Shown here one piece after another: positions 4,531-64,000 of a stretch of 64,000 bases of DNA. The translations under genes and the position numbers were made by a program. The stretch comes from Trypanosoma brucei (lineage: Eukaryota), in contig CM000207.1 of NCBI GenBank assembly GCA_000002445.1, positions 1,568,001-1,632,000 on the forward strand, given 5' to 3'. The notes under the pieces were generated by a model. That model saw only the letters and a list, made by a program, of their open reading frames with translations. It searched no databases and was not told the origin of the DNA. Within the stretch, counting starts at the first letter, position 1. Each line of letters begins with the position of its first letter.

Positions 4531-5807
4531 AAAGGTAATCAAATATTTAACCCTTTGTTCCTATGACAAGCAACATACTTTCGAGCAAAGGGTTTCGCAT
4601 ATCATGACACCTTCACCCCGCAGCAGCCAGCCGGTGTGCTACGCTACAAAACCGTCTTCATCAGACATAGCTCAATAAAGGGCACCTAATCACCTCCTAA
4701 ACACTCAACAGTGTTAACGAAGCAACCCAGTAATGAAATGAACGTCAAACGGGAAAGATACCACAATGAATTCGCTTATTTGTTAGGGCGGTGGGAAACA
4801 ATCCTTTAAGAAAGGGGGTAAACATACGGGTGTATTTCATTCGAAACGGTGATTCCCTTTGCATTATGCTCATTTCCGCATGAGCTGAACCCACTGGATT
4901 TTTATGACCCCGTAATCTAGCAATCGCTCACCCTAATTGAAAAATAAATTAATACATATTTATAGTTAGCGTCGAATCCTGAGAATTTTGCTCAAACAAT
5001 GGCACAGCCCTAAAGGTTGCACACCTCGCACCCCATTCTCAAGCAGCTATATCGAAACTAAAAAAAAAAAGAAGTCCCACTTCGCACACGTAAAAAAGAA
5101 TTGCTTCAAACACATGAGCGCGCGCACCAGGTATACCTACACCAATCAGAATAACCTCGCATATAGGATTGCTTGACTAAAATACAGCAATACCACTACT
5201 TCAACCCCACGGAAAGATTGAGCAGGTCCTTCCCCGCACTTGAACAAACAACGTAAACGAATTCTCCAAAAAAGAAAAACCCATTCCCCTTTTTTTCTCA
5301 TCCATTAGCGTTCCCTTGTTTCCTTTCAGCGCAAAATGAAGCACCAAGATTGTATAGCGCTGCAGCAAAGCAAAAACAAAGAGTAGTTAAAATATGGAAA
5401 CAAATGCGGGAGGTGAGCGGGAAAGGAAAATGACAGGCCGCGGAGCAAAAATTGAGGCGTAAGTTCAGGCGGTGGATACCCTCATATTCTACGGACCAAA
5501 ATTTTCCCTTTAAGCATGTAGTTTTTTAAAATGGTGAGAAATAACCGCGGTGTGGCCACATAGCTAATAACTGCGCGCAGAGAGGTACGTAGAGAAACAT
5601 ATATCCATTTACTCACATGTACATTGATACGCGTTTCTAGCAATTGGTGGGCAGCGCGAAAAAACAGATACGCACACACCTTATCACGGCAACTGACAAG
5701 GTTAAAGAATCCACAACAACTGACATAACGCATCAATGTGCTTGCTCCACTCTCGAATTTGTGAAAAGTTCACAAAAGAACATTATTATGCAAAACAATT
5801 TCCCACA

Positions 5808-7629: not shown

Positions 7630-8137
7630 CGCCAGCACCTCAGTGCTTCAATTGTTGAACCAACCCCTGCCTTCGTATGCTCCTATAGCTCCAATTACGA
7701 TAAGTGGGAGGAGGTGAGCTTCCCGAAGGCAACTACGATTAGTTAATCGAAGTTGGAGAATGGAGAGGGAGAAGGAGAAGGAAAAGGAAAGGGAAAGGAG
7801 CAGGGAGAGTGTGCTTCTCATTAGAAAAGCGACAGCGCGTAGCTGCCGCCAGGGGGCGCCGTGGGGGTGATCAAATAAAAATTGCGTCGGTGACCAAAAT
7901 CAATATATTACAAACAAAAATGACAAAGGCGTCTACAACATTTTAGGGGAAAAGATGTTGTTCCTCCCCTCTCCCCCTACTTCTCGTACTTCATCACCAC
8001 TCGACTCTAATAAACATGGGGTGCACCGCCCCTCCTCGACACCCACTGCACTTCCCCAGCGTCCAAAGGGTTCTTAGGAACGCTTAAATTGCATGTGGGC
8101 ATTGCTGTGGCTAGTCGGGTGCGCACAGCAGGAAATC

Positions 8138-9229
8138 CTACTGCTCCGCGGCAACACCTCTGAAGGGTATCTCAAACCAAATACACCAGTCCTCGATGTC
8201 CTGCACAATTGGATGTCTTTCACCATAAAATTTCTGTGATGTTGTGCGAGCTGAAAGAAGGTGTTCTGCTGCCTCATCGTTTTTATTCACCCACAAAAGA
8301 TACAAACCCAGTAAAAATTGCGCTCGTGCTGTCGTTGGATGTGAGATGGTGAGGCGCTCTTTCTGAATGCTAAAAATACCAAACAACATTTTGGATACAT
8401 CGGCGAGATTTTCCTTTCCAAATGCCCGTGCTGAGGCGTGGCCGACCTCATGTGTGACTTCATCATCGTCATAACGCTTAACGAGCTTAGCTGCCATCGT
8501 TTCATCAACAATGTCTTTGAGTACTCGACGTAAGTGTTTCAGCCAGATGTTTTTCACCGTATCGTAAAGTGCCATCGCCGCCTCCATGCACGCCTTGGTG
8601 GCAAAAACATTGGCCAAGTCAAAATAAGCAAAGGTTGTCAGTACATGCTCTGGGCCATTCATTACACTTAGATAATACGTGGCGCAGGTTAGGTGCTTAA
8701 CAGAAACATCTAGTTTATTGTCCGCGGCATACAGTAGTCCAAATGTCTGGTGGAGTTCCGCTTTTATGGTCGCATCTGCTTCATCTGGATTCTGAAGGAT
8801 AATAAAGTGCGCAAGGGATAATATTTCCTCCGCATTCCCGTAACGTTTCAAAAACTGGTTCGTTCGAGCAAGATGGAAGTGCGCTGGCACAAGCTTTACG
8901 CTTCCCTTTCCATAGAACCTCTCCTTCAAGCGAAGCGTTTTCACGCCTGCCTCCGCTGCTGCCTCTCCGTTTCCCTCCACAAGCAACCGTCTGCTTTCAT
9001 CCTGTGCGCGCGTCAGCAGCTGCTCAATGACCGCACCCACCTTTTCGCGATGCGCCGACCTGGCTGCAAGAGCGTTGATGCCACTAGATGGCGCATCCAT
9101 TAACTGCATCAACTCGTCAAACTTTGGCTCCAGTGTTGACCAGCCAACATTGGTGATGTCGAGTGGGTCCACCAACTCCTTGGCGGCTGCACGCGTGGAG
9201 GGGAGCACTTTTAAATTGGCGCCTTGCAT
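8138..9229 (-). CDS. Conserved hypothetical protein, TPR-like helical repeat character
   Basis: 363 aa ORF on the transcription-unit strand. ATG at 9227-9229. Helical repeat-like segments (FLLGLYLLWVNKNDEAAEHL, YGERHPIV). No family assignable by eye. Confidence 0.5.
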   Translation of the reverse strand: MQGANLKVLPSTRAAAKELVDPLDITNVGWSTLEPKFDELMQLMDAPSSGINALAARSAHREKVGAVIEQLLTRAQDESRRLLVEGNGEAAAEAGVKTLRLKERFYGKGSVKLVPAHFHLARTNQFLKRYGNAEEILSLAHFIILQNPDEADATIKAELHQTFGLLYAADNKLDVSVKHLTCATYYLSVMNGPEHVLTTFAYFDLANVFATKACMEAAMALYDTVKNIWLKHLRRVLKDIVDETMAAKLVKRYDDDEVTHEVGHASARAFGKENLADVSKMLFGIFSIQKERLTISHPTTARAQFLLGLYLLWVNKNDEAAEHLLSARTTSQKFYGERHPIVQDIEDWCIWFEIPFRGVAAEQ

Positions 9230-9981: not shown

Positions 9982-11469
9982 TTAATCGCTGTCATCGAAC
10001 CTTGTGGTATTACGGTTATTGTCGAAAGAAGGAGATGGCCGACCAAAGCCACGGCCTCCACGGTCCCCAAAGCCACGGCCTCCACGATCCCCAAAGCCGC
10101 GGCCTCCACGGTCCCCAAAGCCACGGCCTCCACGATCCCCAAAACCGCGGCCTCCACGGTCCCCAAAGCCACGGCCTCCACGATCCCCAAAGCCACGGCC
10201 TCCACGGTCCCCAAAGCCACGGCCTCCACGATCCCCAAAACCGCGGCCTCCACGATCCCCAAAACCACGGCCTCCACGATCCCCAAAACCACGGCCTCCA
10301 CGATCACCAAAGCCGCGGCCTCCACGATCACCGAAATCACGGCCTCGGCCGCGACCCCGTCCGTTTCCATTTTCATTTCGAATAAACTTTCGAACAGGCT
10401 CGTCTTCCCCCTCCTCGTCATCACCAATGGATCGCTTACCATTGGCATTCTGCTGCACCTCTTCTCCATCACTGTCAGACTCTGGCATAGGTTTCTTGGG
10501 AGCAACCTTTGGTGATGCTTTCACTGGTTTACGCACGGGCTCATCATCATCACTGTCAGACTCTGGCATAGGTTTCTTGGGAGCAACCTTTGGTGACCTC
10601 TTAGCTGGTTTACGCACGGGCTCATCATCATCACTGTCAGACTCTGGCATAGGTTTCTTGGGAGCAACCTTTGGTGACCTCTTAGCTGGTTTACGCACGG
10701 GCTCATCATCATCACTGTCAGACTCTGGCATAGGTTTCTTGGGAGCAACCTTTGGTGATGCCTTCACTGGTTTACGCACGGGTTCATCATCATCACTGTC
10801 AGACTCTGGCATAGGTTTCTTGGGAGCAACCTTTGGTGATGCTTTCACTGGTTTACGCACGGGCTCATCATCATCACTGTCAGACTCTGGCATAGGTTTC
10901 TTGGGAGCAACCTTTGGTGATGCCTTCACTGGTTTACGCACGGGTTCATCATCATCACTGTCAGACTCTGGCATAGGTTTCTTGGGAGCAACCTTTGGTG
11001 ACCTCTTAGCTGGTTTACGCACGGGCTCATCATCATCACTGTCAGACTCTGGCATAGGTTTCTTGGGAGCAACCTTTGGTGATGCCTTCACTGGTTTACG
11101 CACGGGCTCATCATCATCACTGTCAGACTCTGGCATAGGTTTCTTGGGAGCAACCTTTGGTGATGCTTTCACTGGTTTACGCACGGGCTCATCATCATCA
11201 CTGTCAGACTCTGGCATAGGTTTCTTGGGAGCAAACTTTGGTGACCTCTTAGCTGGTTTACGCACGGGCTCATCATCATCACTGTCAGTTTTATCTCGAA
11301 TATTCTTCGGTGCAGCAATGAGAGCCGAGAACTTCAGACCCCGGCCCGCCTTTTCCACTGAGGGATTACTTGCTTTCAAAGCATCCGCAGCTTCGATGTA
11401 GTTCGACTCTCTCAGATATCGGTATACCTGGGCATCAAGCTCATCTTTTGGAAGACGTAACACAGACAT
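9982..11469 (-). CDS. Nopp140-like nucleolar phosphoprotein (LisH motif + 20-aa acidic/basic repeats + C-terminal RGG/GAR domain), resembling trypanosome NoLP
   Basis: 495 aa. N-terminal LisH-like motif (LDAQVYRYLRESNYIEAADALKA). About 12 tandem 20-aa units (SDSDDDEPVRKP[V/A]K[A/R]SPKVAPKKPMPE). About 13 units of GDRGGRGF. ATG at 11467-11469. Confidence 0.65.
   Translation of the reverse strand: MSVLRLPKDELDAQVYRYLRESNYIEAADALKASNPSVEKAGRGLKFSALIAAPKNIRDKTDSDDDEPVRKPAKRSPKFAPKKPMPESDSDDDEPVRKPVKASPKVAPKKPMPESDSDDDEPVRKPVKASPKVAPKKPMPESDSDDDEPVRKPAKRSPKVAPKKPMPESDSDDDEPVRKPVKASPKVAPKKPMPESDSDDDEPVRKPVKASPKVAPKKPMPESDSDDDEPVRKPVKASPKVAPKKPMPESDSDDDEPVRKPAKRSPKVAPKKPMPESDSDDDEPVRKPAKRSPKVAPKKPMPESDSDDDEPVRKPVKASPKVAPKKPMPESDSDGEEVQQNANGKRSIGDDEEGEDEPVRKFIRNENGNGRGRGRGRDFGDRGGRGFGDRGGRGFGDRGGRGFGDRGGRGFGDRGGRGFGDRGGRGFGDRGGRGFGDRGGRGFGDRGGRGFGDRGGRGFGDRGGRGFGDRGGRGFGRPSPSFDNNRNTTRFDDSD
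10037..10340. repeat. 24-bp perfect tandem repeat (~12-13 copies), encodes the RGG/GAR domain
   Basis: Unit ccaaagccacggcctccacgrtcc repeats head-to-tail. It lies inside the C-terminal part of the minus-strand CDS. Confidence 0.85.
10440..11290. repeat. 60-bp tandem repeat (~13 copies, two alternating variants), encodes the acidic/basic 20-aa repeats
   Basis: Unit catcatcatcactgtcagactctggcataggtttcttgggagcaacctttggtga[tgc(t/c)ttcac|cctcttagc]tggtttacgcacgggct. Near-perfect copies inside the CDS. Confidence 0.85.
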
Positions 11470-54321: not shown

Positions 54322-57300
54322 ACACCCAAACACTTACTCAGAAGTCAAACAGACAAAATTAACTGATGTCAGCATCAAATAAATTCAGCTGAAACACGGA
54401 TTTGACAGACTCATCATTGACACAAAACAAGGTAAGAGCAACACCACCAAACAGTTCAGAGCAGGAATAAGAAGGAGGGCGGCATGTACATATGTGTGTG
54501 GGGTAATGTTGGTGTAATGGGGAAAAGGTGAGAAAGTTACCGTACGCCTCGGACGCAGGACGCACGCGGCTGGAATGTTGTGCGGCGCCCCAGAAACTAT
54601 CGTAACACTCGTGCTCAATCCATGTTCGGGTGTGTGTCATAAGACCGTCGTAAGTGGTTTATCGTCATGGGCAAAGTACAAGGTGTATCCGCAGTGACCA
54701 AAGAGACAATGCAGAATCTGGCAAAGAGAAAGGGCGAAAGCCAAGCAATAAGGGTGGTTTCAAATGTAAAACAAGGAAAAAGGGAGGGGAGGGGGGTGAC
54801 AGTAACCACACACATGGTATGATAACGTGCCACGACGAAACCAAACACCATCAGCCGGGGAAAGAAGAATATTCTTTAAATGGGTTATTGTCATTCAAAT
54901 ACACTCAGAGACTCCAGTCCATTGATGTCATCAAGTAGCGCGTTTACGACAGGTTAGGTGTACCGCAAAGCAACTCTCGGAGCGCACCAAGATGGCCTAC
55001 GGCATGCAATCACAAAACGGCCGCTCCATGGCTAAAGCCCCTTTTTCATTTTTGTTGTCCATAAAAACACTGAAGGGAGAAAACAGAGGAAGGAGAAGGT
55101 AACAATATCAAACAAGAGAAGAGTGTGCACTAACCAATAACCTCCGTTATAATTCTCGGACCACGTGAGTGTGCAAACAAGGACACAGAAATGTTAGCCC
55201 AAGACACAACTCCAATGTGGGCCTTCCCCTACGGTTACTGCCCCAACACATAATTGTAATTATAATAATAACCATAATCATAATTATACACCTGACGTCA
55301 AGTGAAAAAAACTCGGCGCGTCAGAAACAATATTAGCGTCACGGGTTCTGTTCAGATGTTGCTGTTAATTTGTTATATTAGGTATTCATCACACGCACCT
55401 ACTCGCCGAACTGCTAACCCCACACGTCAGCTCGGAGCGAAAGATAGAGTTCACAGTTGCATCGACATAGTGTGTTTCCGTTCCGCCTACGCGGTATCGG
55501 AAGCTCTTTCATCAGTGGCGGGGAACGACGGATGGGGGATAAACACTTAACAGAGGGGAAAATGTGCATGAAATAGGTAATACAATAAGAGAAGGGGGAA
55601 GTAAACAGGGAATCACGGAAGTAAGGTTCAGTGCAGGTCTGTGTTATGGTGTCCTCACAGGTTCTCGGTGCAATTTGAACATATTGTACATCGTCACCTA
55701 CTACATTCCCTCTCGACTACCCCGCCACTCACAACATTATACTGCCGCCCACATTAGCCATTCCAAACTCACTGCGGTAATGTATCCTCGTGTGTGCTTG
55801 CGTGTATATGTGTATATATGTGTATGTGTATGGAGTCGCGCCCAAGTGCCCGAGGTTGAGTACCTGAAGGACACGATAGCCATCAGACCCGAAAGGTGAT
55901 TTGTGTTGTATAGATCCCTCATGAATATGACGTCGGAACATGTTTGGACGCTCAACTAGTTTCCATCATCGGCCACACACATACACAAACATACAAGCAC
56001 ACACACACACACACACACTCACATATATATATATATATATACATACACGACAAACCTCCGCACACCCAAACACTTACTCAGAAGTCAAACAGACAAAATT
56101 AACTGATGTCAGCATCAAATAAATTCAGCTGAAACACGGATTTGACAGACTCATCATTGACACAAAACAAGGTAAGAGCAACACCACCAAACAGTTCAGA
56201 GCAGGAATAAGAAGGAGGGCGGCATGTACATATGTGTGTGGGGTAATGTTGGTGTAATGGGGAAAAGGTGAGAAAGTTACCGTACGCCTCGGACGCAGGA
56301 CGCACGCGGCTGGAATGTTGTGCGGCGCCCCAGAAACTATCGTAACACTCGTGCTCAATCCATGTTCGGGTGTGTGTCATAAGACCGTCGTAAGTGGTTT
56401 ATCGTCATGGGCAAAGTACAAGGTGTATCCGCAGTGACCAAAGAGACAATGCAGAATCTGGCAAAGAGAAAGGGCGAAAGCCAAGCAATAAGGGTGGTTT
56501 CAAATGTAAAACAAGGAAAAAGGGAGGGGAGGGGGGTGACAGTAACCACACACATGGTATGATAACGTGCCACGACGAAACCAAACACCATCAGCCGGGG
56601 AAAGAAGAATATTCTTTAAATGGGTTATTGTCATTCAAATACACTCAGAGACTCCAGTCCATTGATGTCATCAAGTAGCGCGTTTACGACAGGTTAGGTG
56701 TACCGCAAAGCAACTCTCGGAGCGCACCAAGATGGCCTACGGCATGCAATCACAAAACGGCCGCTCCATGGCTAAAGCCCCTTTTTCATTTTTGTTGTCC
56801 ATAAAAACACTGAAGGGAGAAAACAGAGGAAGGAGAAGGTAACAATATCAAACAAGAGAAGAGTGTGCACTAACCAATAACCTCCGTTATAATTCTCGGA
56901 CCACGTGAGTGTGCAAACAAGGACACAGAAATGTTAGCCCAAGACACAACTCCAATGTGGGCCTTCCCCTACGGTTACTGCCCCAACACATAATTGTAAT
57001 TATAATAATAACCATAATCATAATTATACACCTGACGTCAAGTGAAAAAAACTCGGCGCGTCAGAAACAATATTAGCGTCACGGGTTCTGTTCAGATGTT
57101 GCTGTTAATTTGTTATATTAGGTATTCATCACACGCACCTACTCGCCGAACTGCTAACCCCACACGTCAGCTCGGAGCGAAAGATAGAGTTCACAGTTGC
57201 ATCGACATAGTGTGTTTCCGTTCCGCCTACGCGGTATCGGAAGCTCTTTCATCAGTGGCGGGGAACGACGGATGGGGGATAAACACTTAACAGAGGGGAA

Positions 57301-60300
57301 AATGTGCATGGAATAGGTAATACAATAAGAGAAGGGGGAAGTAAACAGGGAATCACGGAAGTAAGGTTCAGTGCAGGTCTGTGTTATGGTGTCCTCACAG
57401 GTTCTCGGTGCAATTTGAACATATTGTACATCGTCACCCACTACATTCCCTCTCGACTACCCCGCCACTCACAACATTATACTGCCGCCCACATTAGCCA
57501 TTCCAAACTCACTGCGGTAATGTATCCTCGTGTGTGCTTGCGTGTATATGTGTATATATGTGTATATATGTGTATGTGTATGGAGTCGCGCCCAAGTGCC
57601 CGAGGTTGAGTACCTGAAGGACACGATAGCCATCAGACCCGAAAGGTGATTTGTGTTGTATAGATCCCTCATGAATATGACGTCGGAACATGTTTGGACG
57701 CTCAACTAGTTTCCATCATCGGCCACACACATACACAAACATACAAGCACACACACATACACACACTCACATATATATATATATATATATATACATACAC
57801 GACAAACCTCCGCACACCCAAACACTTACTCAGAAGTCAAACAGACAAAATTAACTGATGTCAGCATCAAATAAATTCAGCTGAAACACGGATTTGACAG
57901 ACTCATCATTGACACAAAACAAGGTAAGAGCAACACCACCAAACAGTTCAGAGCAGGAATAAGAAGGAGGGCGGCATGTACATATGTGTGTGGGGTAATC
58001 TTGGTGTAATGGGGAAAAGGTGAGAAAGTTACCGTACGCCTCGGACGCAGGACGCACGCGGCTGGAATGTTGTGCGGCGCCCCAGAAACTATCGTAACAC
58101 TCGTGCTCAATCCATGTTCGGGTGTGTGTCATAAGACCGTCGTAAGTGGTTTATCGTCATGGGCAAAGTACAAGGTGTATCCGCAGTGACCAAAGAGACA
58201 ATGCAGAATCTGGCAAAGAGAAAGGGCGAAAGCCAAGCAATAAGGGTGGTTTCAAATGTAAAACAAGGAAAAAGGGAGGGGAGGGGGGTGACAGTAACCA
58301 CACACATGGTATGATAACGTGCCACGACGAAACCAAACACCATCAGCCGGGGAAAGAAGAATATTCTTTAAATGGGTTATTGTCATTCAAATACACTCAG
58401 AGACTCCAGTCCATTGATGTCATCAAGTAGCGCGTTTACGACAGGTTAGGTGTACCGCAAAGCAACTCTCGGAGCGCACCAAGATGGCCTACGGCATGCA
58501 ATCACAAAACGGCCGCTCCATGGCTAAAGCCCCTTTTTCATTTTTGTTGTCCATAAAAACACTGAAGGGAGAAAACAGAGGAAGGAGAAGGTAACAATAT
58601 CAAACAAGAGAAGAGTGTGCACTAACCAATAACCTCCGTTATAATTCTCGGACCACGTGAGTGTGCAAACAAGGACACAGAAATGTTAGCCCAAGACACA
58701 ACTCCAATGTGGGCCTTCCCCTACGGTTACTGCCCCAACACATAATTGTAATTATAATAATAACCATAATCATAATTATACACCTGACGTCAAGTGAAAA
58801 AAACTCGGCGCGTCAGAAACAATATTAGCGTCACGGGTTCTGTTCAGATGTTGCTGTTAATTTGTTATATTAGGTATTCATCACACGCACCTACTCGCCG
58901 AACTGCTAACCCCACACGTCAGCTCGGAGCGAAAGATAGAGTTCACAGTTGCATCGACATAGTGTGTTTCCGTTCCGCCTACGCGGTATCGGAAGCTCTT
59001 TCATCAGTGGCGGGGAACGACGGATGGGGGATAAACACTTAACAGAGGGGAAAATGTGCATGGAATAGGTAATACAATAAGAAAAGGGGGAAGTAAACAG
59101 GGAATCACGGAAGTAAGGTTCAGTGCAGGTCTGTGTTATGGTGTCCTCACAGGTTCTCGGTGCAATTTGAACATATTGTACATCGTCACCCACTACATTC
59201 CCTCTCGACTACCCCGCCACTCACAACATTATACTGCCGCCCACATTAGCCATTCCAAACTCACTGCGGTAATGTATCCTCGTGTGTGCTTGCGTGTATA
59301 TGTGTATATATGTGTATGTGTATGGAGTCGCGCCCAAGTGCCCGAGGTTGAGTACCTGAAGGACACGATAGCCATCAGACCCGAAAGGTGATTTGTGTTG
59401 TATAGATCCCTCATGAATATGACGTCGGAACATGTTTGGACGCTCAACTAGTTTCCATCATCGGCCACACACATACACAAACATACAAGCACACACACAC
59501 ACACACACACTCACATATATATATATATATATACATATATATACACGACAAACCTCCGCACACCCAAACACTTACTCAGAAGTCAAACAGACAAAATTAA
59601 CTGATGTCAGCATCAAATAAATTCAGCTGAAACACGGATTTGACAGACTCATCATTGACACAAAACAAGGTAAGAGCAACACCACCAAACAGTTCAGAGC
59701 AGGAATAAGAAGGAGGGCGGCATGTACATATGTGTGTGGGGTAATCTTGGTGTAATGGGGAAAAGGTGAGAAAGTTACCGTACGCCTCGGACGCAGGACG
59801 CACGCGGCTGGAATGTTGTGCGGCGCCCCAGAAACTATCGTAACACTCGTGCTCAATCCATGTTCGGGTGTGTGTCATAAGACCGTCGTAAGTGGTTTAT
59901 CGTCATGGGCAAAGTACAAGGTGTATCCGCAGTGACCAAAGAGACAATGCAGAATCTGGCAAAGAGAAAGGGCGAAAGCCAAGCAATAAGGGTGGTTTCA
60001 AATGTAAAACAAGGAAAAAGGGAGGGGAGGGGGGTGACAGTAACCACACACATGGTATGATAACGTGCCACGACGAAACCAAACACCATCAGCCGGGGAA
60101 AGAAGAATATTCTTTAAATGGGTTATTGTCATTCAAATACACTCAGAGACTCCAGTCCATTGATGTCATCAAGTAGCGCGTTTACGACAGGTTAGGTGTA
60201 CCGCAAAGCAACTCTCGGAGCGCACCAAGATGGCCTACGGCATGCAATCACAAAACGGCCGCTCCATGGCTAAAGCCCCTTTTTCATTTTTGTTGTCCAT

Positions 60301-63300
60301 AAAAACACTGAAGGGAGAAAACAGAGGAAGGAGAAGGTAACAATATCAAACAAGAGAAGAGTGTGCACTAACCAATAACCTCCGTTATAATTCTCGGACC
60401 ACGTGAGTGTGCAAACAAGGACACAGAAATGTTAGCCCAAGACACAACTCCGATGTGGGCCTTCCCCTACGGTTACTGCCCCAACACATAATTGTAATTA
60501 TAATAATAACCATAATCATAATTATACACCTGACGTCAAGTGAAAAAAACTCGGCGCGTCAGAAACAATATTAGCGTCACGGGTTCTGTTCAGATGTTGC
60601 TGTTAATTTGTTATATTAGGTATTCATCACACGCACCTACTCGCCGAACTGCTAACCCCACACGTCAGCTCGGAGCGAAAGATAGAGTTCACAGTTGCAT
60701 CGACATAGTGTGTTTCCGTTCCGCCTACGCGGTATCGGAAGCTCTTTCATCAGTGGCGGGGAACGACGGATGGGGGATAAACACTTAACAGAGGGGAAAA
60801 TGTGCATGGAATAGGTAATACAATAAGAGAAGGGGGAAGTAAACAGGGAATCACGGAAGTAAGGTTCAGTGCAGGTCTGTGTTATGGTGTCCTCACAGGT
60901 TCTCGGTGCAATTTGAACATATTGTACATCGTCACCCACTACATTCCCTCTCGACTACCCCGCCACTCACAACATTATACTGCCGCCCACATTAGCCATT
61001 CCAAACTCACTGCGGTAATGTATCCTCGTGTGTGCTTGCGTGTATATGTGTATATATGTGTATGTGTATGGAGTCGCGCCCAAGTGCCCGAGGTTGAGTA
61101 CCTGAAGGACACGATAGCCATCAGACCCGAAAGGTGATTTGTGTTGTATAGATCCCTCATGAATATGACGTCGGAACATGTTTGGACGCTCAACTAGTTT
61201 CCATCATCGGCCACACACATACACAAACATACAAGCACACACACACACACACACACTCACATATATATATATATATATACATACACGACAAACCTCCGCA
61301 CACCCAAACACTTACTCAGAAGTCAAACAGACAAAATTAACTGATGTCAGCATCAAATAAATTCAGCTGAAACACGGATTTGACAGACTCATCATTGACA
61401 CAAAACAAGGTAAGAGCAACACCACCAAACAGTTCAGAGCAGGAATAAGAAGGAGGGCGGCATGTACATATGTGTGTGGGGTAATCTTGGTGTAATGGGG
61501 AAAAGGTGAGAAAGTTACCGTACGCCTCGGACGCAGGACGCACGCGGCTGGAATGTTGTGCGGCGCCCCAGAAACTATCGTAACACTCGTGCTCAATCCA
61601 TGTTCGGGTGTGTGTCATAAGACCGTCGTAAGTGGTTTATCGTCATGGGCAAAGTACAAGGTGTATCCGCAGTGACCAAAGAGACAATGCAGAATCTGGC
61701 AAAGAGAAAGGGCGAAAGCCAAGCAATAAGGGTGGTTTCAAATGTAAAACAAGGAAAAAGGGAGGGGAGGGGGGTGACAGTAACCACACACATGGTATGA
61801 TAACGTGCCACGACGAAACCAAACACCATCAGCCGGGGAAAGAAGAATATTCTTTAAATGGGTTATTGTCATTCAAATACACTCAGAGACTCCAGTCCAT
61901 TGATGTCATCAAGTAGCGCGTTTACGACAGGTTAGGTGTACCGCAAAGCAACTCTCGGAGCGCACCAAGATGGCCTACGGCATGCAATCACAAAACGGCC
62001 GCTCCATGGCTAAAGCCCCTTTTTCATTTTTGTTGTCCATAAAAACACTGAAGGGAGAAAACAGAGGAAGGAGAAGGTAACAATATCAAACAAGAGAAGA
62101 GTGTGCACTAACCAATAACCTCCGTTATAATTCTCGGACCACGTGAGTGTGCAAACAAGGACACAGAAATGTTAGCCCAAGACACAACTCCAATGTGGGC
62201 CTTCCCCTACGGTTACTGCCCCAACACATAATTGTAATTATAATAATAACCATAATCATAATTATACACCTGACGTCAAGTGAAAAAAACTCGGCGCGTC
62301 AGAAACAATATTAGCGTCACGGGTTCTGTTCAGATGTTGCTGTTAATTTGTTATATTAGGTATTCATCACACGCACCTACTCGCCGAACTGCTAACCCCA
62401 CACGTCAGCTCGGAGCGAAAGATAGAGTTCACAGTTGCATCGACATAGTGTGTTTCCGTTCCGCCTACGCGGTATCGGAAGCTCTTTCATCAGTGGCGGG
62501 GAACGATGGATGGGGGATAAACACTTAACAGAGGGGAAAATGTGCATGGAATAGGTAATACAATAAGAGAAGGGGGAAGTAAACAGGGAATCACGGAAGT
62601 AAGGTTCAGTGCAGGTCTGTGTTATGGTGTCCTCACAGGTTCTCGGTGCAATTTGAACATATTGTACATCGTCACCCACTACATTCCCTCTCGACTACCC
62701 CGCCACTCACAACATTATACTGCCGCCCACATTAGCCATTCCAAACTCACTGCGGTAATGTATCCTCGTGTGTGCTTGCGTGTATATGTGTATATATGTG
62801 TATGTGTATGGAGTCGCGCCCAAGTGCCCGAGGTTGAGTACCTGAAGGACACGATAGCCATCAGACCCGAAAGGTGATTTGTGTTGTATAGATCCCTCAT
62901 GAATATGACGTCGGAACATGTTTGGACGCTCAACTAGTTTCCATCATCGGCCACACACATACACAAACATACAAGCACACACACACACACACACTCACAT
63001 ATATATATATATATATATACATACACGACAAACCTCCGCACACCCAAACACTTACTCAGAAGTCAAACAGACAAAATTAACTGATGTCAGCATCAAATAA
63101 ATTCAGCTGAAACACGGATTTGACAGACTCATCATTGACACAAAACAAGGTAAGAGCAACACCACCAAACAGTTCAGAGCAGGAATAAGAAGGAGGGCGG
63201 CATGTACATATGTGTGTGGGGTAATGTTGGTGTAATGGGGAAAAGGTGAGAAAGTTACCGTACGCCTCGGACGCAGGACGCACGCGGCTGGAATGTTGTG

Positions 63301-64000
63301 CGGCGCCCCAGAAACTATCGTAACACTCGTGCTCAATCCATGTTCGGGTGTGTGTCATAAGACCGTCGTAAGTGGTTTATCGTCATGGGCAAAGTACAAG
63401 GTGTATCCGCAGTGACCAAAGAGACAATGCAGAATCTGGCAAAGAGAAAGGGCGAAAGCCAAGCAATAAGGGTGGTTTCAAATGTAAAACAAGGAAAAAG
63501 GGAGGGGAGGGGGGTGACAGTAACCACACACATGGTATGATAACGTGCCACGACGAAACCAAACACCATCAGCCGGGGAAAGAAGAATATTCTTTAAATG
63601 GGTTATTGTCATTCAAATACACTCAGAGACTCCAGTCCATTGATGTCATCAAGTAGCGCGTTTACGACAGGTTAGGTGTACCGCAAAGCAACTCTCGGAG
63701 CGCACCAAGATGGCCTACGGCATGCAATCACAAAACGGCCGCTCCATGGCTAAAGCCCCTTTTTCATTTTTGTTGTCCATAAAAACACTGAAGGGAGAAA
63801 ACAGAGGAAGGAGAAGGTAACAATATCAAACAAGAGAAGAGTGTGCACAAACCAATAACCTCCGTTATAATTCTCGGACCACGTGAGTGTGCAAACAAGG
63901 ACACAGAAATGTTAGCCCAAGACACAACTCCAATGTGGGCCTTCCCCTACGGTTACTGCCCCAACACATAATTGTAATTATAATAATAACCATAATCATA
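54322..64000. repeat. Head-to-tail tandem array of a ~1.74 kb unit (5 full copies + 1 partial, truncated by the window edge)
   Basis: Unit boundaries 54322, 56062, 57814, 59560, 61300, 63040, giving unit lengths 1740/1752/1746/1740/1740. About 99.5% identity. Length differences map to internal (TGTATATA)n and (CA)n(TA)n microsatellites. The identical short ORFs in the six-frame track recur at these offsets. Confidence 0.95.
55999..56040. repeat. Compound (CA)n(TA)n microsatellite inside each 1.74 kb unit (recurs in every copy, length-variable)
   Basis: acacacacacacacacacactcacatatatatatatatatat. Copies near 57746-57797, 59480-59536, 61236-61279 and 62976-63019 differ in repeat number. Confidence 0.9.

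What the first reader, a model, noticed from the sequence alone, without database searches (positions are those of the whole stretch)
54334..54420. C/D-box snoRNA-like element on the minus strand at the start of each repeat unit
Reverse complement of plus 54334-54424 reads:
...gtgtca-AUGAUGA-gtctgtcaaatccgtgtttcag-CUGA-atttatt-UGAUGC-tgacatcagttaattttgtctgtttgactt-CUGA-gtaag.

- C box AUGAUGA: plus tcatcat, 54411-54417.
- About 22 nt, then a D'-like CUGA.
- About 7 nt, then a C'-like UGAUGC.
- About 30 nt, then D box CUGA: plus tcag, 54338-54341.

Total length is about 85 nt. Order, spacing and size fit a canonical two-guide C/D snoRNA. A terminal stem is not obvious; it is often weak in trypanosome snoRNAs.

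The same element recurs near the start of every later unit, at 56074-56160, 57826-57912, 59572-59658, 61312-61398 and 63052-63138.
Basis: partly seen in the sequence, partly recalled or inferred. Interest (0 to 1): 0.5.

Follow-up and report, generated by a model that had tools for sequence, protein, structure and literature searches.

The report
Known trypanosome methylation-guide snoRNA TB9Cs2C2
The flagged 87-base element is a real box C/D small nucleolar RNA gene, but it is ordinary. It is almost certainly the catalogued Trypanosoma brucei snoRNA TB9Cs2C2, which guides ribose methylation at A742/A743 and C760 of the large-subunit ribosomal RNA.

Summary
On the minus strand at 54417-54338 lie AUGAUGA, a 22-nt spacer, CUGA, a C'-like box, a spacer and CUGA. 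The stretch is present six times, all identical.

The window is the Trypanosoma brucei chromosome-9 snoRNA cluster TB9Cs2. Rfam finds TB9Cs2H1 in every unit, and eight published T. brucei primers for TB9Cs2C3 and TB9Cs2C5 match exactly.

The two guides pair with one stretch of kinetoplastid-type large-subunit (LSU) rRNA.
- D' guide: 12 bp, and the fifth pair is the second A of GAAAC.
- D guide: 14 bp, and the fifth pair is the C of GAGUC.
- The two predicted sites lie 17 nt apart.

Published RiboMeth-seq assigns LSU-alpha Am742, Am743 and Cm760 to TB9Cs2C2. Those sites lose methylation when NOP1 is silenced.

In the syntenic T. cruzi cluster the boxes and both guides are unchanged, while the spacers and flanks have diverged.

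- The C' box is better read as AUGCUGA.
- The element is the last gene of the array in the direction of transcription.

Novelty: already known. Interest is low.

The parts
54334..54420 (-). Box C/D snoRNA gene, copy 1. It is the 3'-most copy in the direction of transcription. Inferred to be TB9Cs2C2.
   Evidence: Sequence read. Identical to the five other copies. Conserved island against T. cruzi, 54416-54337 matching L121 3714-3790.
54411..54417 (-). C box AUGAUGA
   Evidence: The UGAUGA core is invariant in the three intact T. cruzi copies.
54389..54400 (-). D' guide, paired part (UCCGUGUUUCAG). It pairs with LSU rRNA 5'-UUGAAACACGGA-3'. The fifth pair is the second A of GAAAC, taken to be T. 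brucei LSU-alpha A743.
   Evidence: 12 bp with 1 G-U, the best anchored match in three rDNA units. Identical in the three intact T. cruzi copies. Nm at A742/A743 is assigned to TB9Cs2C2.
54385..54388 (-). D' box CUGA
   Evidence: Invariant in T. cruzi.
54369..54375 (-). C' box, best read as AUGCUGA (one mismatch to RUGAUGA).
   Evidence: GAUGCUGA is identical in T. brucei and the three intact T. cruzi copies, whereas UGAUGC becomes CGAUGC in T. cruzi.
54342..54355 (-). D guide, paired part (UGUCUGUUUGACUU). It pairs with LSU rRNA 5'-GAGUCAAACAGAC(G/A)-3'. The fifth pair is the C of GUC, taken to be T. brucei LSU-alpha C760.
   Evidence: 14 bp with 1-2 G-U, the best anchored match. UUUGUCUGUUUGACUUCUGA is invariant in all T. 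cruzi copies. Cm760 is assigned to TB9Cs2C2.
54338..54341 (-). D box CUGA
   Evidence: Invariant in T. cruzi.
56074..56160 (-). snoRNA gene, copy 2 (identical)
57826..57912 (-). snoRNA gene, copy 3 (identical)
59572..59658 (-). snoRNA gene, copy 4 (identical)
61312..61398 (-). snoRNA gene, copy 5 (identical)
63052..63138 (-). snoRNA gene, copy 6 (identical)
54322..64000 (-). Tandem snoRNA array, cluster TB9Cs2. Units are 1740-1752 nt and the array runs off the window end. Inferred order per unit on the minus strand: C3, C4, C5, C6, H1, a probable H2, C7, C1, C2.
   Evidence: Repeat families. TB9Cs2H1 in every unit. Published C3 and C5 primers match exactly. Guides of the other members hit rRNA with the published target nucleotide. 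The conserved islands are collinear with T. cruzi.
55154..55223 (-). TB9Cs2H1 H/ACA-like snoRNA. It is the cluster marker; the unit-1 copy is given here.
   Evidence: Rfam RF01554, 86.8 bits against a gathering score of 45.

Best explanation
The element is a box C/D small nucleolar RNA gene of Trypanosoma brucei. It is almost certainly the catalogued snoRNA TB9Cs2C2. There are at least six identical copies, one per unit of the tandem TB9Cs2 cluster on chromosome 9.

**Proposed mechanism**
1. The array lies in the same orientation as all flanking protein-coding genes. It is presumably transcribed as part of a polycistronic precursor, from which an RNA of about 85-90 nt is trimmed. This step is inferred from established trypanosomatid biology.
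2. The C/D and C'/D' box pairs would assemble the core proteins, including the methyltransferase NOP1 (fibrillarin). This step is also inferred.
3. The 12 nt upstream of D' pair with LSU-alpha rRNA 5'-UUGAAACACGGA-3'. This places the second A of GAAAC (A743) at the fifth pair. The adjacent A742 is also attributed to this snoRNA in the literature.
4. The 14 nt upstream of D pair with 5'-GAGUCAAACAGAC-3'. This places C760 at the fifth pair.
5. Both nucleotides then receive 2'-O-methylation. The two target sites are 17 nt apart in the same conserved segment of LSU domain II.

**Shown here:** the boxes, the copies, the pairing and its register, conservation in T. cruzi, and the identity of the cluster.

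**Taken from the literature:** that these positions are methylated, that the methylation falls on NOP1 silencing, and that they are assigned to TB9Cs2C2.
For: **Cluster identity**
- Rfam TB9Cs2H1 sits once per unit at 84-87 bits, against a gathering score of 45.
- Eight published T. brucei primers for TB9Cs2C3 and TB9Cs2C5 each match the window exactly five times.

**Element**
- The four boxes have canonical spacing.
- The six copies are identical.
- The four-box pattern hits only these six places in the window and 0 of 5000 shuffles of one unit.

**Targets**
- A metagenome scan with GAAACACGGA-N6-AGTCAAACAGAC returned at least 120 contigs.
- All but one read CCCGTCTTGAAACACGGACCAAGGAGTCAAACAGAC. 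The exception has one substitution in the spacer.
- 41 of them also carry the T. brucei 5.8S primer sequence.
- Three long contigs are complete rDNA units by Rfam.
- In all three the best anchored duplex is 12 bp for the D' guide and 14 bp for the D guide. The fifth nucleotides are A and C, 17 nt apart, which equals 760 minus 743.
- Shuffled guides reach these scores in 29 of 1000 (D') and 13 of 1000 (D) trials, taken separately.
- Registering the sequence with that A as 743 reproduces the published nucleotide at 742 (A), 743 (A), 746 (A), 747 (C) and 760 (C).

**Positive control**
- The same scan gives the published target nucleotide for C3 (G), C4 (G), C5 (G), C6 (U) and C7 (U and G).
- The two C7 sites are 26 nt apart, which equals 685 minus 659.

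**Literature**
- PMC9283944 Table 2 lists LSUa_742 (0.59), LSUa_743 (0.92) and LSUa_760 (0.82), all with snoRNA TB9Cs2C2.
- All three scores fall on NOP1 silencing. The drop is significant for 743 (p = 0.0074) and 760 (p = 0.0003) but not for 742 (p = 0.085).

**Conservation**
- The syntenic T. cruzi cluster lies upstream of the orthologous SacI-domain gene.
- It holds three intact copies with UGAUGA, the D' guide plus CUGA, GAUGCUGA and the D guide plus CUGA all unchanged.
- Overall identity is only 75%, and the spacers and flanks differ.

**Orientation**
- All ORFs of at least 200 aa are on the minus strand, apart from one antisense ORF within a repeat.
Against: - The name TB9Cs2C2 is inferred. 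It rests on the target sites, on the cyclic gene order relative to the primer-anchored C3 and C5, and on the nucleotide identities. The papers that print the sequence (Liang 2005, Rajan 2020) are not held.
- The rRNA used for pairing comes from environmental kinetoplastid-type contigs, not from T. brucei. The scan pattern was derived from the guides.
- Each guide match alone is only modestly unlikely (p about 0.03 and 0.013).
- No terminal stem is present in T. brucei, and the RNA folds no better than shuffles (z = +1.35). This is common for trypanosomatid C/D snoRNAs.
- No Rfam family covers the element. The best hit is SNORD126 at E = 0.84.
- A742 sits at the fourth pair, not the fifth, so its assignment to this guide does not follow the strict +5 rule.
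- Expression, RNA ends and protein binding were not tested here.
Confidence: 0.93

Rival explanations
1. The RNA acts mainly as a pre-rRNA folding or processing chaperone. Its two guides would clamp two rRNA segments 17 nt apart in LSU domain II, and methylation would be secondary. This does not exclude the main explanation.
For: Several members of the same cluster (TB9Cs2C1, C3, C5) affect trypanosome-specific LSU processing when silenced (PMC6411936, PMC3273796). The two guides of this element bind adjacent segments of one rRNA stretch.
Against: The held papers report no processing role for TB9Cs2C2 and do not list it among the abundant processing snoRNAs. Both duplexes obey the +5 register at sites with measured Nm. 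No conserved complementarity exists outside the two guides, because the rest of the RNA diverges in T. cruzi.
Confidence: 0.1
2. The boxes are a chance arrangement of short motifs inside a repeat that is amplified for other reasons. No RNA product is made.
For: The bare C...D pattern does occur by chance, with 30 hits in a coding tandem repeat at 10467-11288. The RNA has no stable fold. Each guide match alone is reached by 1-3% of shuffles.
Against: The four-box pattern is absent from the rest of the window and from 5000 shuffles. Both guides hit the same rRNA stretch in the +5 register at mapped Nm sites. The boxes and guides are invariant in T. cruzi while the spacers and flanks diverge.
Confidence: 0.01
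3. The element is a decayed or silent paralogue. The functional guide for A743 and C760 is encoded elsewhere in the genome.
For: One of the four T. cruzi copies (L121, about 5250-5335) has a damaged C box, D' guide and C' box. Copies in such arrays can therefore decay, unless these are assembly errors.
Against: All six T. brucei copies are identical and intact. They sit in the cluster whose name the published guide carries. Three T. cruzi copies are intact.
Confidence: 0.03

Closest known systems
Trypanosoma brucei TB9Cs2C2, a box C/D snoRNA of the chromosome-9 cluster TB9Cs2 (nomenclature of Liang et al. 2005; targets listed in PMC9283944 Table 2)
   Same: It lies in the same cluster, identified by H1 (Rfam) and by exact C3 and C5 primer matches. 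It occupies the position between C1 and C3 in the cyclic order. Its predicted targets are an A and a C 17 nt apart in GAAAC...GAGUC, matching the published LSU-alpha A742/A743 and C760.
   Different: No difference was found. The published sequence could not be read here, so identity is inferred rather than checked base by base.
Trypanosoma cruzi ortholog in the syntenic cluster (CM026627.1; L121 507-583, 3714-3790, 6801-6877)
   Same: The C box core, D' guide, D' box, GAUGCUGA, D guide and D box are all identical. It has the same neighbours, with a C3-like gene downstream and a C1-like gene upstream. It also has the same position relative to H1.
   Different: The spacers and flanks have diverged, with 75% identity over 80 nt. 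The D'-C' spacer is 3 nt shorter. T. cruzi has a possible 3-bp terminal stem that T. brucei lacks. One T. cruzi copy is degenerate. A 364-aa ORF lies between the T. cruzi array and the SacI-domain gene, and none does in T. brucei.
Yeast snR58 and human SNORD104 (U104), guides for 25S Cm663 and 28S Cm1327. This assignment is from my own knowledge and was not tested.
   Same: T. brucei C760 is the positional equivalent of yeast C663 and human C1327. This follows from PMC3542256, which equates T. brucei TB10Cs2C2 and its A site with yeast A649 and human A1313, plus the 14-nt offset in the universal sequence.
   Different: Rfam detects no sequence-family relationship. The trypanosome rRNA reads GUCAAACAGAC, where I recall most eukaryotes read GUCUAAC (the common eukaryotic form was not checked here), and the guide has co-varied with it. 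This snoRNA also carries a second guide for A742/A743.
Yeast snR18, human U18 and T. brucei TB10Cs2C2
   Same: They target the same rRNA stretch, GAAACACGG.
   Different: They guide A746/C747 in T. brucei (yeast A649/C650), three to four nucleotides downstream of the A742/A743 guided here. TB10Cs2C2 is a different snoRNA in a different cluster.

Membership tests
Box C/D snoRNA (2'-O-methylation guide) | C box RUGAUGA near the 5' end and D box CUGA near the 3' end | tested here: met
   AUGAUGA at 54417-54411 and CUGA at 54341-54338. Both are conserved in T. cruzi.
Box C/D snoRNA (2'-O-methylation guide) | Internal D' and C' boxes in the order C, D', C', D | tested here: met
   D' CUGA at 54388-54385. 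C' AUGCUGA at 54375-54369, with one mismatch to the consensus. Both are conserved in T. cruzi.
Box C/D snoRNA (2'-O-methylation guide) | At least 10 nt of complementarity to rRNA directly upstream of D or D', with the fifth paired nucleotide a 2'-O-methylated site | tested here: met
   Duplexes of 12 bp (D') and 14 bp (D) form with kinetoplastid-type LSU rRNA. The fifth nucleotides correspond to published Am743 and Cm760. The rRNA was environmental, not T. brucei itself.
Box C/D snoRNA (2'-O-methylation guide) | Short terminal stem bringing the C and D boxes together | tested here: not met
   The flanks GUGUCA and GUAAGU do not pair. The minimum-energy fold leaves the ends unpaired, with z = +1.35. 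T. cruzi has at most 3 bp. From my own knowledge this feature is dispensable and often absent in trypanosomatid C/D snoRNAs.
Box C/D snoRNA (2'-O-methylation guide) | Discrete stable RNA of about 70-100 nt bound by fibrillarin/NOP1, Nop56, Nop58 and Snu13 | not testable with these tools
   Only indirect evidence exists: the assigned Nm sites fall on NOP1 silencing (PMC9283944 Table 2).
Box C/D snoRNA (2'-O-methylation guide) | Boxes and guides conserved between species while the spacers drift | tested here: met
   T. brucei against T. cruzi.
T. brucei cluster TB9Cs2, member C2 | Located in the reiterated chromosome-9 cluster that contains TB9Cs2H1, C3 and C5 | tested here: met
   Rfam RF01554 in every unit. 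Exact primer matches for C3 and C5.
T. brucei cluster TB9Cs2, member C2 | Guides LSU-alpha A742/A743 and C760 | tested here: met
   The predicted targets are an A and a C 17 nt apart in the right sequence context. The register reproduces the published nucleotides at 742, 743, 746, 747 and 760.
T. brucei cluster TB9Cs2, member C2 | Sequence identical to the published TB9Cs2C2 | not testable with these tools
   Liang 2005 and Rajan 2020 are not held, and the held supplements do not print the sequence.
Rfam C/D families (SNORD104, snR58, SNORD18 and others) | Score at or above the family gathering threshold | tested here: not met
   The gathering scan finds only TB9Cs2H1. In E-value mode the best hit on the element is SNORD126 at 20.4 bits against a gathering score of 55, E = 0.84.

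The most novel reading that the evidence does not exclude
The most novel reading not excluded is that a single D' guide directs methylation of two adjacent adenosines. A743 would sit at the canonical fifth pair and A742 at the fourth. Alternatively, the two guides, which bind 17 nt apart, act together as a clamp that also helps fold LSU domain II in trypanosomes. Either would be a small mechanistic nuance on a known snoRNA.
Probability: 0.15. Interest if true: 0.15.

Novelty: already known. Interest (0 to 1): 0.06.

Why it matters
It matters little beyond correct annotation. The element belongs to a snoRNA cluster described in T. brucei since 2005, and its target methylations have been mapped by RiboMeth-seq. 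The result does show that the first-stage reader can recognise a genuine C/D snoRNA from sequence alone. It also gives a fully anchored map of the TB9Cs2 unit in this window.

Tried and rejected
- **Rfam.** The gathering and E-value scans find no family for the element. Only a weak partial SNORD126 hit appears, at E = 0.84.
- **Papers.** Liang 2005 (PMC1370750) and Rajan 2020 (PMC7549662), which should print the sequence, are not held. The supplements of PMC3273796, PMC6411936 and PMC9283944 do not contain the element's sequence.
- **Structure.** There is no terminal stem and no fold better than shuffles. A 5-bp hairpin, UGAUG-CUGA-CAUCA, around the C' box in T. brucei is not conserved in T. 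cruzi and was dismissed.
- **More orthologs.** Contigs carrying the SacI-domain ortholog from four other sources (L122-L125) end before, or lack, the C2 gene. L123 retains only an H1 copy at 365-431. The T. congolense protein has no contig on record. Leishmania was not reached.
- **Covariation.** No covariation analysis was possible. There are only two species, and the functional parts are invariant.
- **Bare C...D pattern.** It was rejected as evidence because it also hits a coding repeat 30 times.
- **T. brucei rRNA.** It could not be fetched, so environmental kinetoplastid-type rDNA was used instead.
Full report
**1. The observation**

Read on the minus strand, window 54420-54334 contains the following:
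- AUGAUGA at 54417-54411.
- A 22-nt spacer.
- CUGA at 54388-54385.
- 7 nt, then UGAUGC at 54377-54372.
- 30 nt, then CUGA at 54341-54338.

The copies lie in tandem units of 1740-1752 nt.

A pattern requiring all four boxes at C/D-like spacing hits only these six places in the 64-kb window. It hit 0 times in 5000 shuffles of one unit. The bare pattern of RUGAUGA, 45-95 nt, then CUGA is not informative. It also hits 30 times inside an 81-nt coding tandem repeat at 10467-11288.

**2. Where we are**

Rfam finds the trypanosomatid H/ACA-like snoRNA TB9Cs2H1 (RF01554) once per unit on the minus strand, at 84-87 bits against a gathering score of 45.

Eight oligonucleotides published for T. brucei TB9Cs2C3 and TB9Cs2C5 each match the window exactly, five times, at one position per unit (PMC6411936, supplementary table S1). 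The window is therefore the T. brucei chromosome-9 snoRNA cluster TB9Cs2.

All ORFs of at least 200 aa are on the minus strand, apart from one antisense ORF in a repeat. The array is thus co-oriented with the surrounding genes. Trypanosomatid snoRNA clusters are known to be processed from polycistronic transcripts. That is established knowledge and was not tested here.

Identity between units ends at 54322. On the transcribed strand the flagged copy is therefore the last gene of the array, about 300 nt upstream of a SacI-domain protein gene at 54022-51755.

**3. What the guides pair with**

From the guides alone I predicted a target of UUGAAACACGGA, six bases, then AGUCAAACAGAC. The first half is the universal LSU sequence. 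As I recall it, the second half differs from the common eukaryotic AGUCUAAC; that comparison was not checked here.

A metagenome scan for GAAACACGGA-N6-AGTCAAACAGAC returned at least 120 contigs.
- All but one read CCCGTCTTGAAACACGGACCAAGGAGTCAAACAGAC. The exception has one substitution in the spacer.
- 41 of them also carry the first 20 nt of T. brucei 5.8S rRNA.
- Three long contigs are complete SSU-5.8S-LSU units by Rfam.

I then ran an anchored-duplex scan on those units. It allows no gaps, allows G-U pairs, and starts at the first or second base before the box. Results for this element:

| Guide | Best duplex | Fifth paired nucleotide |
|---|---|---|
| D' | 12 bp, UUGAAACACGGA | second A of GAAAC |
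| D | 14 bp, GAGUCAAACAGAC(G/A) | C of GUC |

The two sites are 17 nt apart. Shuffled guides reach these scores in 29 of 1000 trials for D' and 13 of 1000 for D, taken separately. Each match alone is only moderately unlikely. The strength lies in both guides landing side by side in the +5 register.

**4. Agreement with published modification maps**

Table 2 of PMC9283944 gives RiboMeth-seq scores for T. brucei rRNA:

| Site | Nucleotide | Score | Assigned snoRNA |
|---|---|---|---|
| LSUa_742 | A | 0.59 | TB9Cs2C2 |
| LSUa_743 | A | 0.92 | TB9Cs2C2 |
| LSUa_760 | C | 0.82 | TB9Cs2C2 |

All three scores fall on NOP1 silencing. The drop is significant for 743 (p = 0.0074) and 760 (p = 0.0003) but not for 742 (p = 0.085).

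The distance 760 minus 743 is 17, as predicted. Setting the fifth-pair A to 743 in the recovered rRNA sequence also reproduces the published nucleotide at 742 (A), 746 (A), 747 (C) and 760 (C).

The same scan serves as a positive control for the rest of the unit. It gives the published target nucleotide for C3 (G), C4 (G), C5 (G), C6 (U) and C7 (U and G). The two C7 sites are 26 nt apart, which equals 685 minus 659.

With C3 and C5 anchored by primers, the order on the minus strand is C1, C2, C3, C4, C5, C6, H1, C7. The flagged element takes the C2 slot.

The sense primer of the published C3 silencing construct starts at 56074, the last base of the flagged interval of the next copy.

**5. Conservation**

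The SacI-domain neighbour has orthologs in other trypanosomes. In the T. cruzi locus (CM026627.1, L121) the syntenic cluster lies upstream, with three TB9Cs2H1 copies.

T. brucei and T. cruzi units share a collinear series of conserved islands that coincide with the snoRNA genes. The flagged element aligns to L121 507-583, 3714-3790 and 6801-6877 at 75% identity. Within it these parts are unchanged:
- UGAUGA.
- AAUCCGUGUUUCAG-CUGA.
- GAUGCUGA.
- UUUGUCUGUUUGACUU-CUGA.

The D'-C' spacer, the region after C' and both flanks differ. This is the conservation pattern expected of a two-guide C/D snoRNA.

It also shows that the C' box is better read as AUGCUGA (54375-54369), because UGAUGC becomes CGAUGC in T. 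cruzi. A fourth T. cruzi copy is damaged in the C box, the D' guide and C'.

**6. Structure**

The RNA has no terminal stem in T. brucei and folds no better than shuffles, with z = +1.35. That fits unstructured guide regions. T. cruzi could form about 3 bp at the termini.

**7. Mechanism and comparison**

The best explanation is a canonical methylation guide.
- The C/D and C'/D' motifs recruit the core proteins, including NOP1.
- Each guide pairs with LSU-alpha.
- The nucleotide at the fifth pair is 2'-O-methylated (A743 and C760).
- A742, at the fourth pair, is attributed to the same guide in the literature.

PMC3542256 equates TB10Cs2C2 and its A site with yeast A649 and human A1313. It follows that C760 corresponds to yeast C663 and human C1327. 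From memory, those sites are guided by snR58 and SNORD104. A743 corresponds to yeast A646.

No Rfam C/D family reaches threshold on the element. The relationship to those snoRNAs is one of target site, not detectable sequence family.

**8. Verdict**

The element is an already-known snoRNA, inferred to be TB9Cs2C2. The one formal gap is that the published sequence of TB9Cs2C2 and the T. brucei rRNA itself could not be read with the tools available. Interest is low.

Noticed in passing
window 54972-55041 (-), and once per unit: There is a conserved island between H1 and C7. It is a hairpin with lower stem GGGGC/GCUCC, followed by GAGA (an AGA box), and it is conserved in T. cruzi with one compensatory pair in the lower stem. 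It looks like a second single-hairpin H/ACA-like snoRNA, possibly the TB9Cs2H2 mentioned in PMC3542256. Rfam does not detect it.
   Followed up: partly
window 54546-54668 (-), and once per unit: This is the most conserved island of the unit, at 84% identity to T. cruzi over 124 nt. It starts with AUGACGA and sits in the slot of TB9Cs2C1, the abundant snoRNA implicated in LSU and srRNA-2 processing. It has no canonical CUGA D box at the expected place and is longer than a typical C/D snoRNA.
   Followed up: partly
window 10467-11288 (and 10043-10346): An 81-nt tandem repeat (10 copies) and a 24-nt tandem repeat lie inside a minus-strand ORF (9982-11469). Each 81-nt unit reads ATGATGA...CTGA on the minus strand and so mimics a bare C...D box pattern, giving 30 false hits.
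   Followed up: partly
window 55624-55976 (-): The published northern-probe primer pair for TB9Cs2C3 (PMC6411936, table S1, numbers 57 and 58) spans 353 nt in this sequence. It runs from the start of C3 to the end of the next snoRNA, inferred to be C4. Such a probe would detect two snoRNAs.
   Followed up: no
window 55974-56048, 57724-57773, 59466-59545, 61212-61261, 62952-62999: (CA)n, (TA)n and (TG)n microsatellites lie between C2 and C3. Other sequence-variable stretches lie within units (for example 55781-56048, 94-95% identity between units). The differences in unit length (1740, 1746, 1752 nt) may arise from them. The snoRNA genes themselves are identical.
   Followed up: partly
L121 (T. 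cruzi CM026627.1) 5250-5335, 1399-2328 and 7742-8836: One of the four T. cruzi C2 copies carries small deletions or substitutions in the C box, the D' guide and C'. This is either a decaying copy or assembly error. The T. cruzi array is interrupted by an Oxidored_FMN gene. A 364-aa ORF separates it from the SacI-domain gene, unlike in T. brucei.
   Followed up: no
window 54369-54381 (-): The C' region of T. brucei can form a 5-bp hairpin, UGAUG-CUGA-CAUCA, which contains a third CUGA. It is not conserved in T. cruzi, so it is probably incidental.
   Followed up: yes
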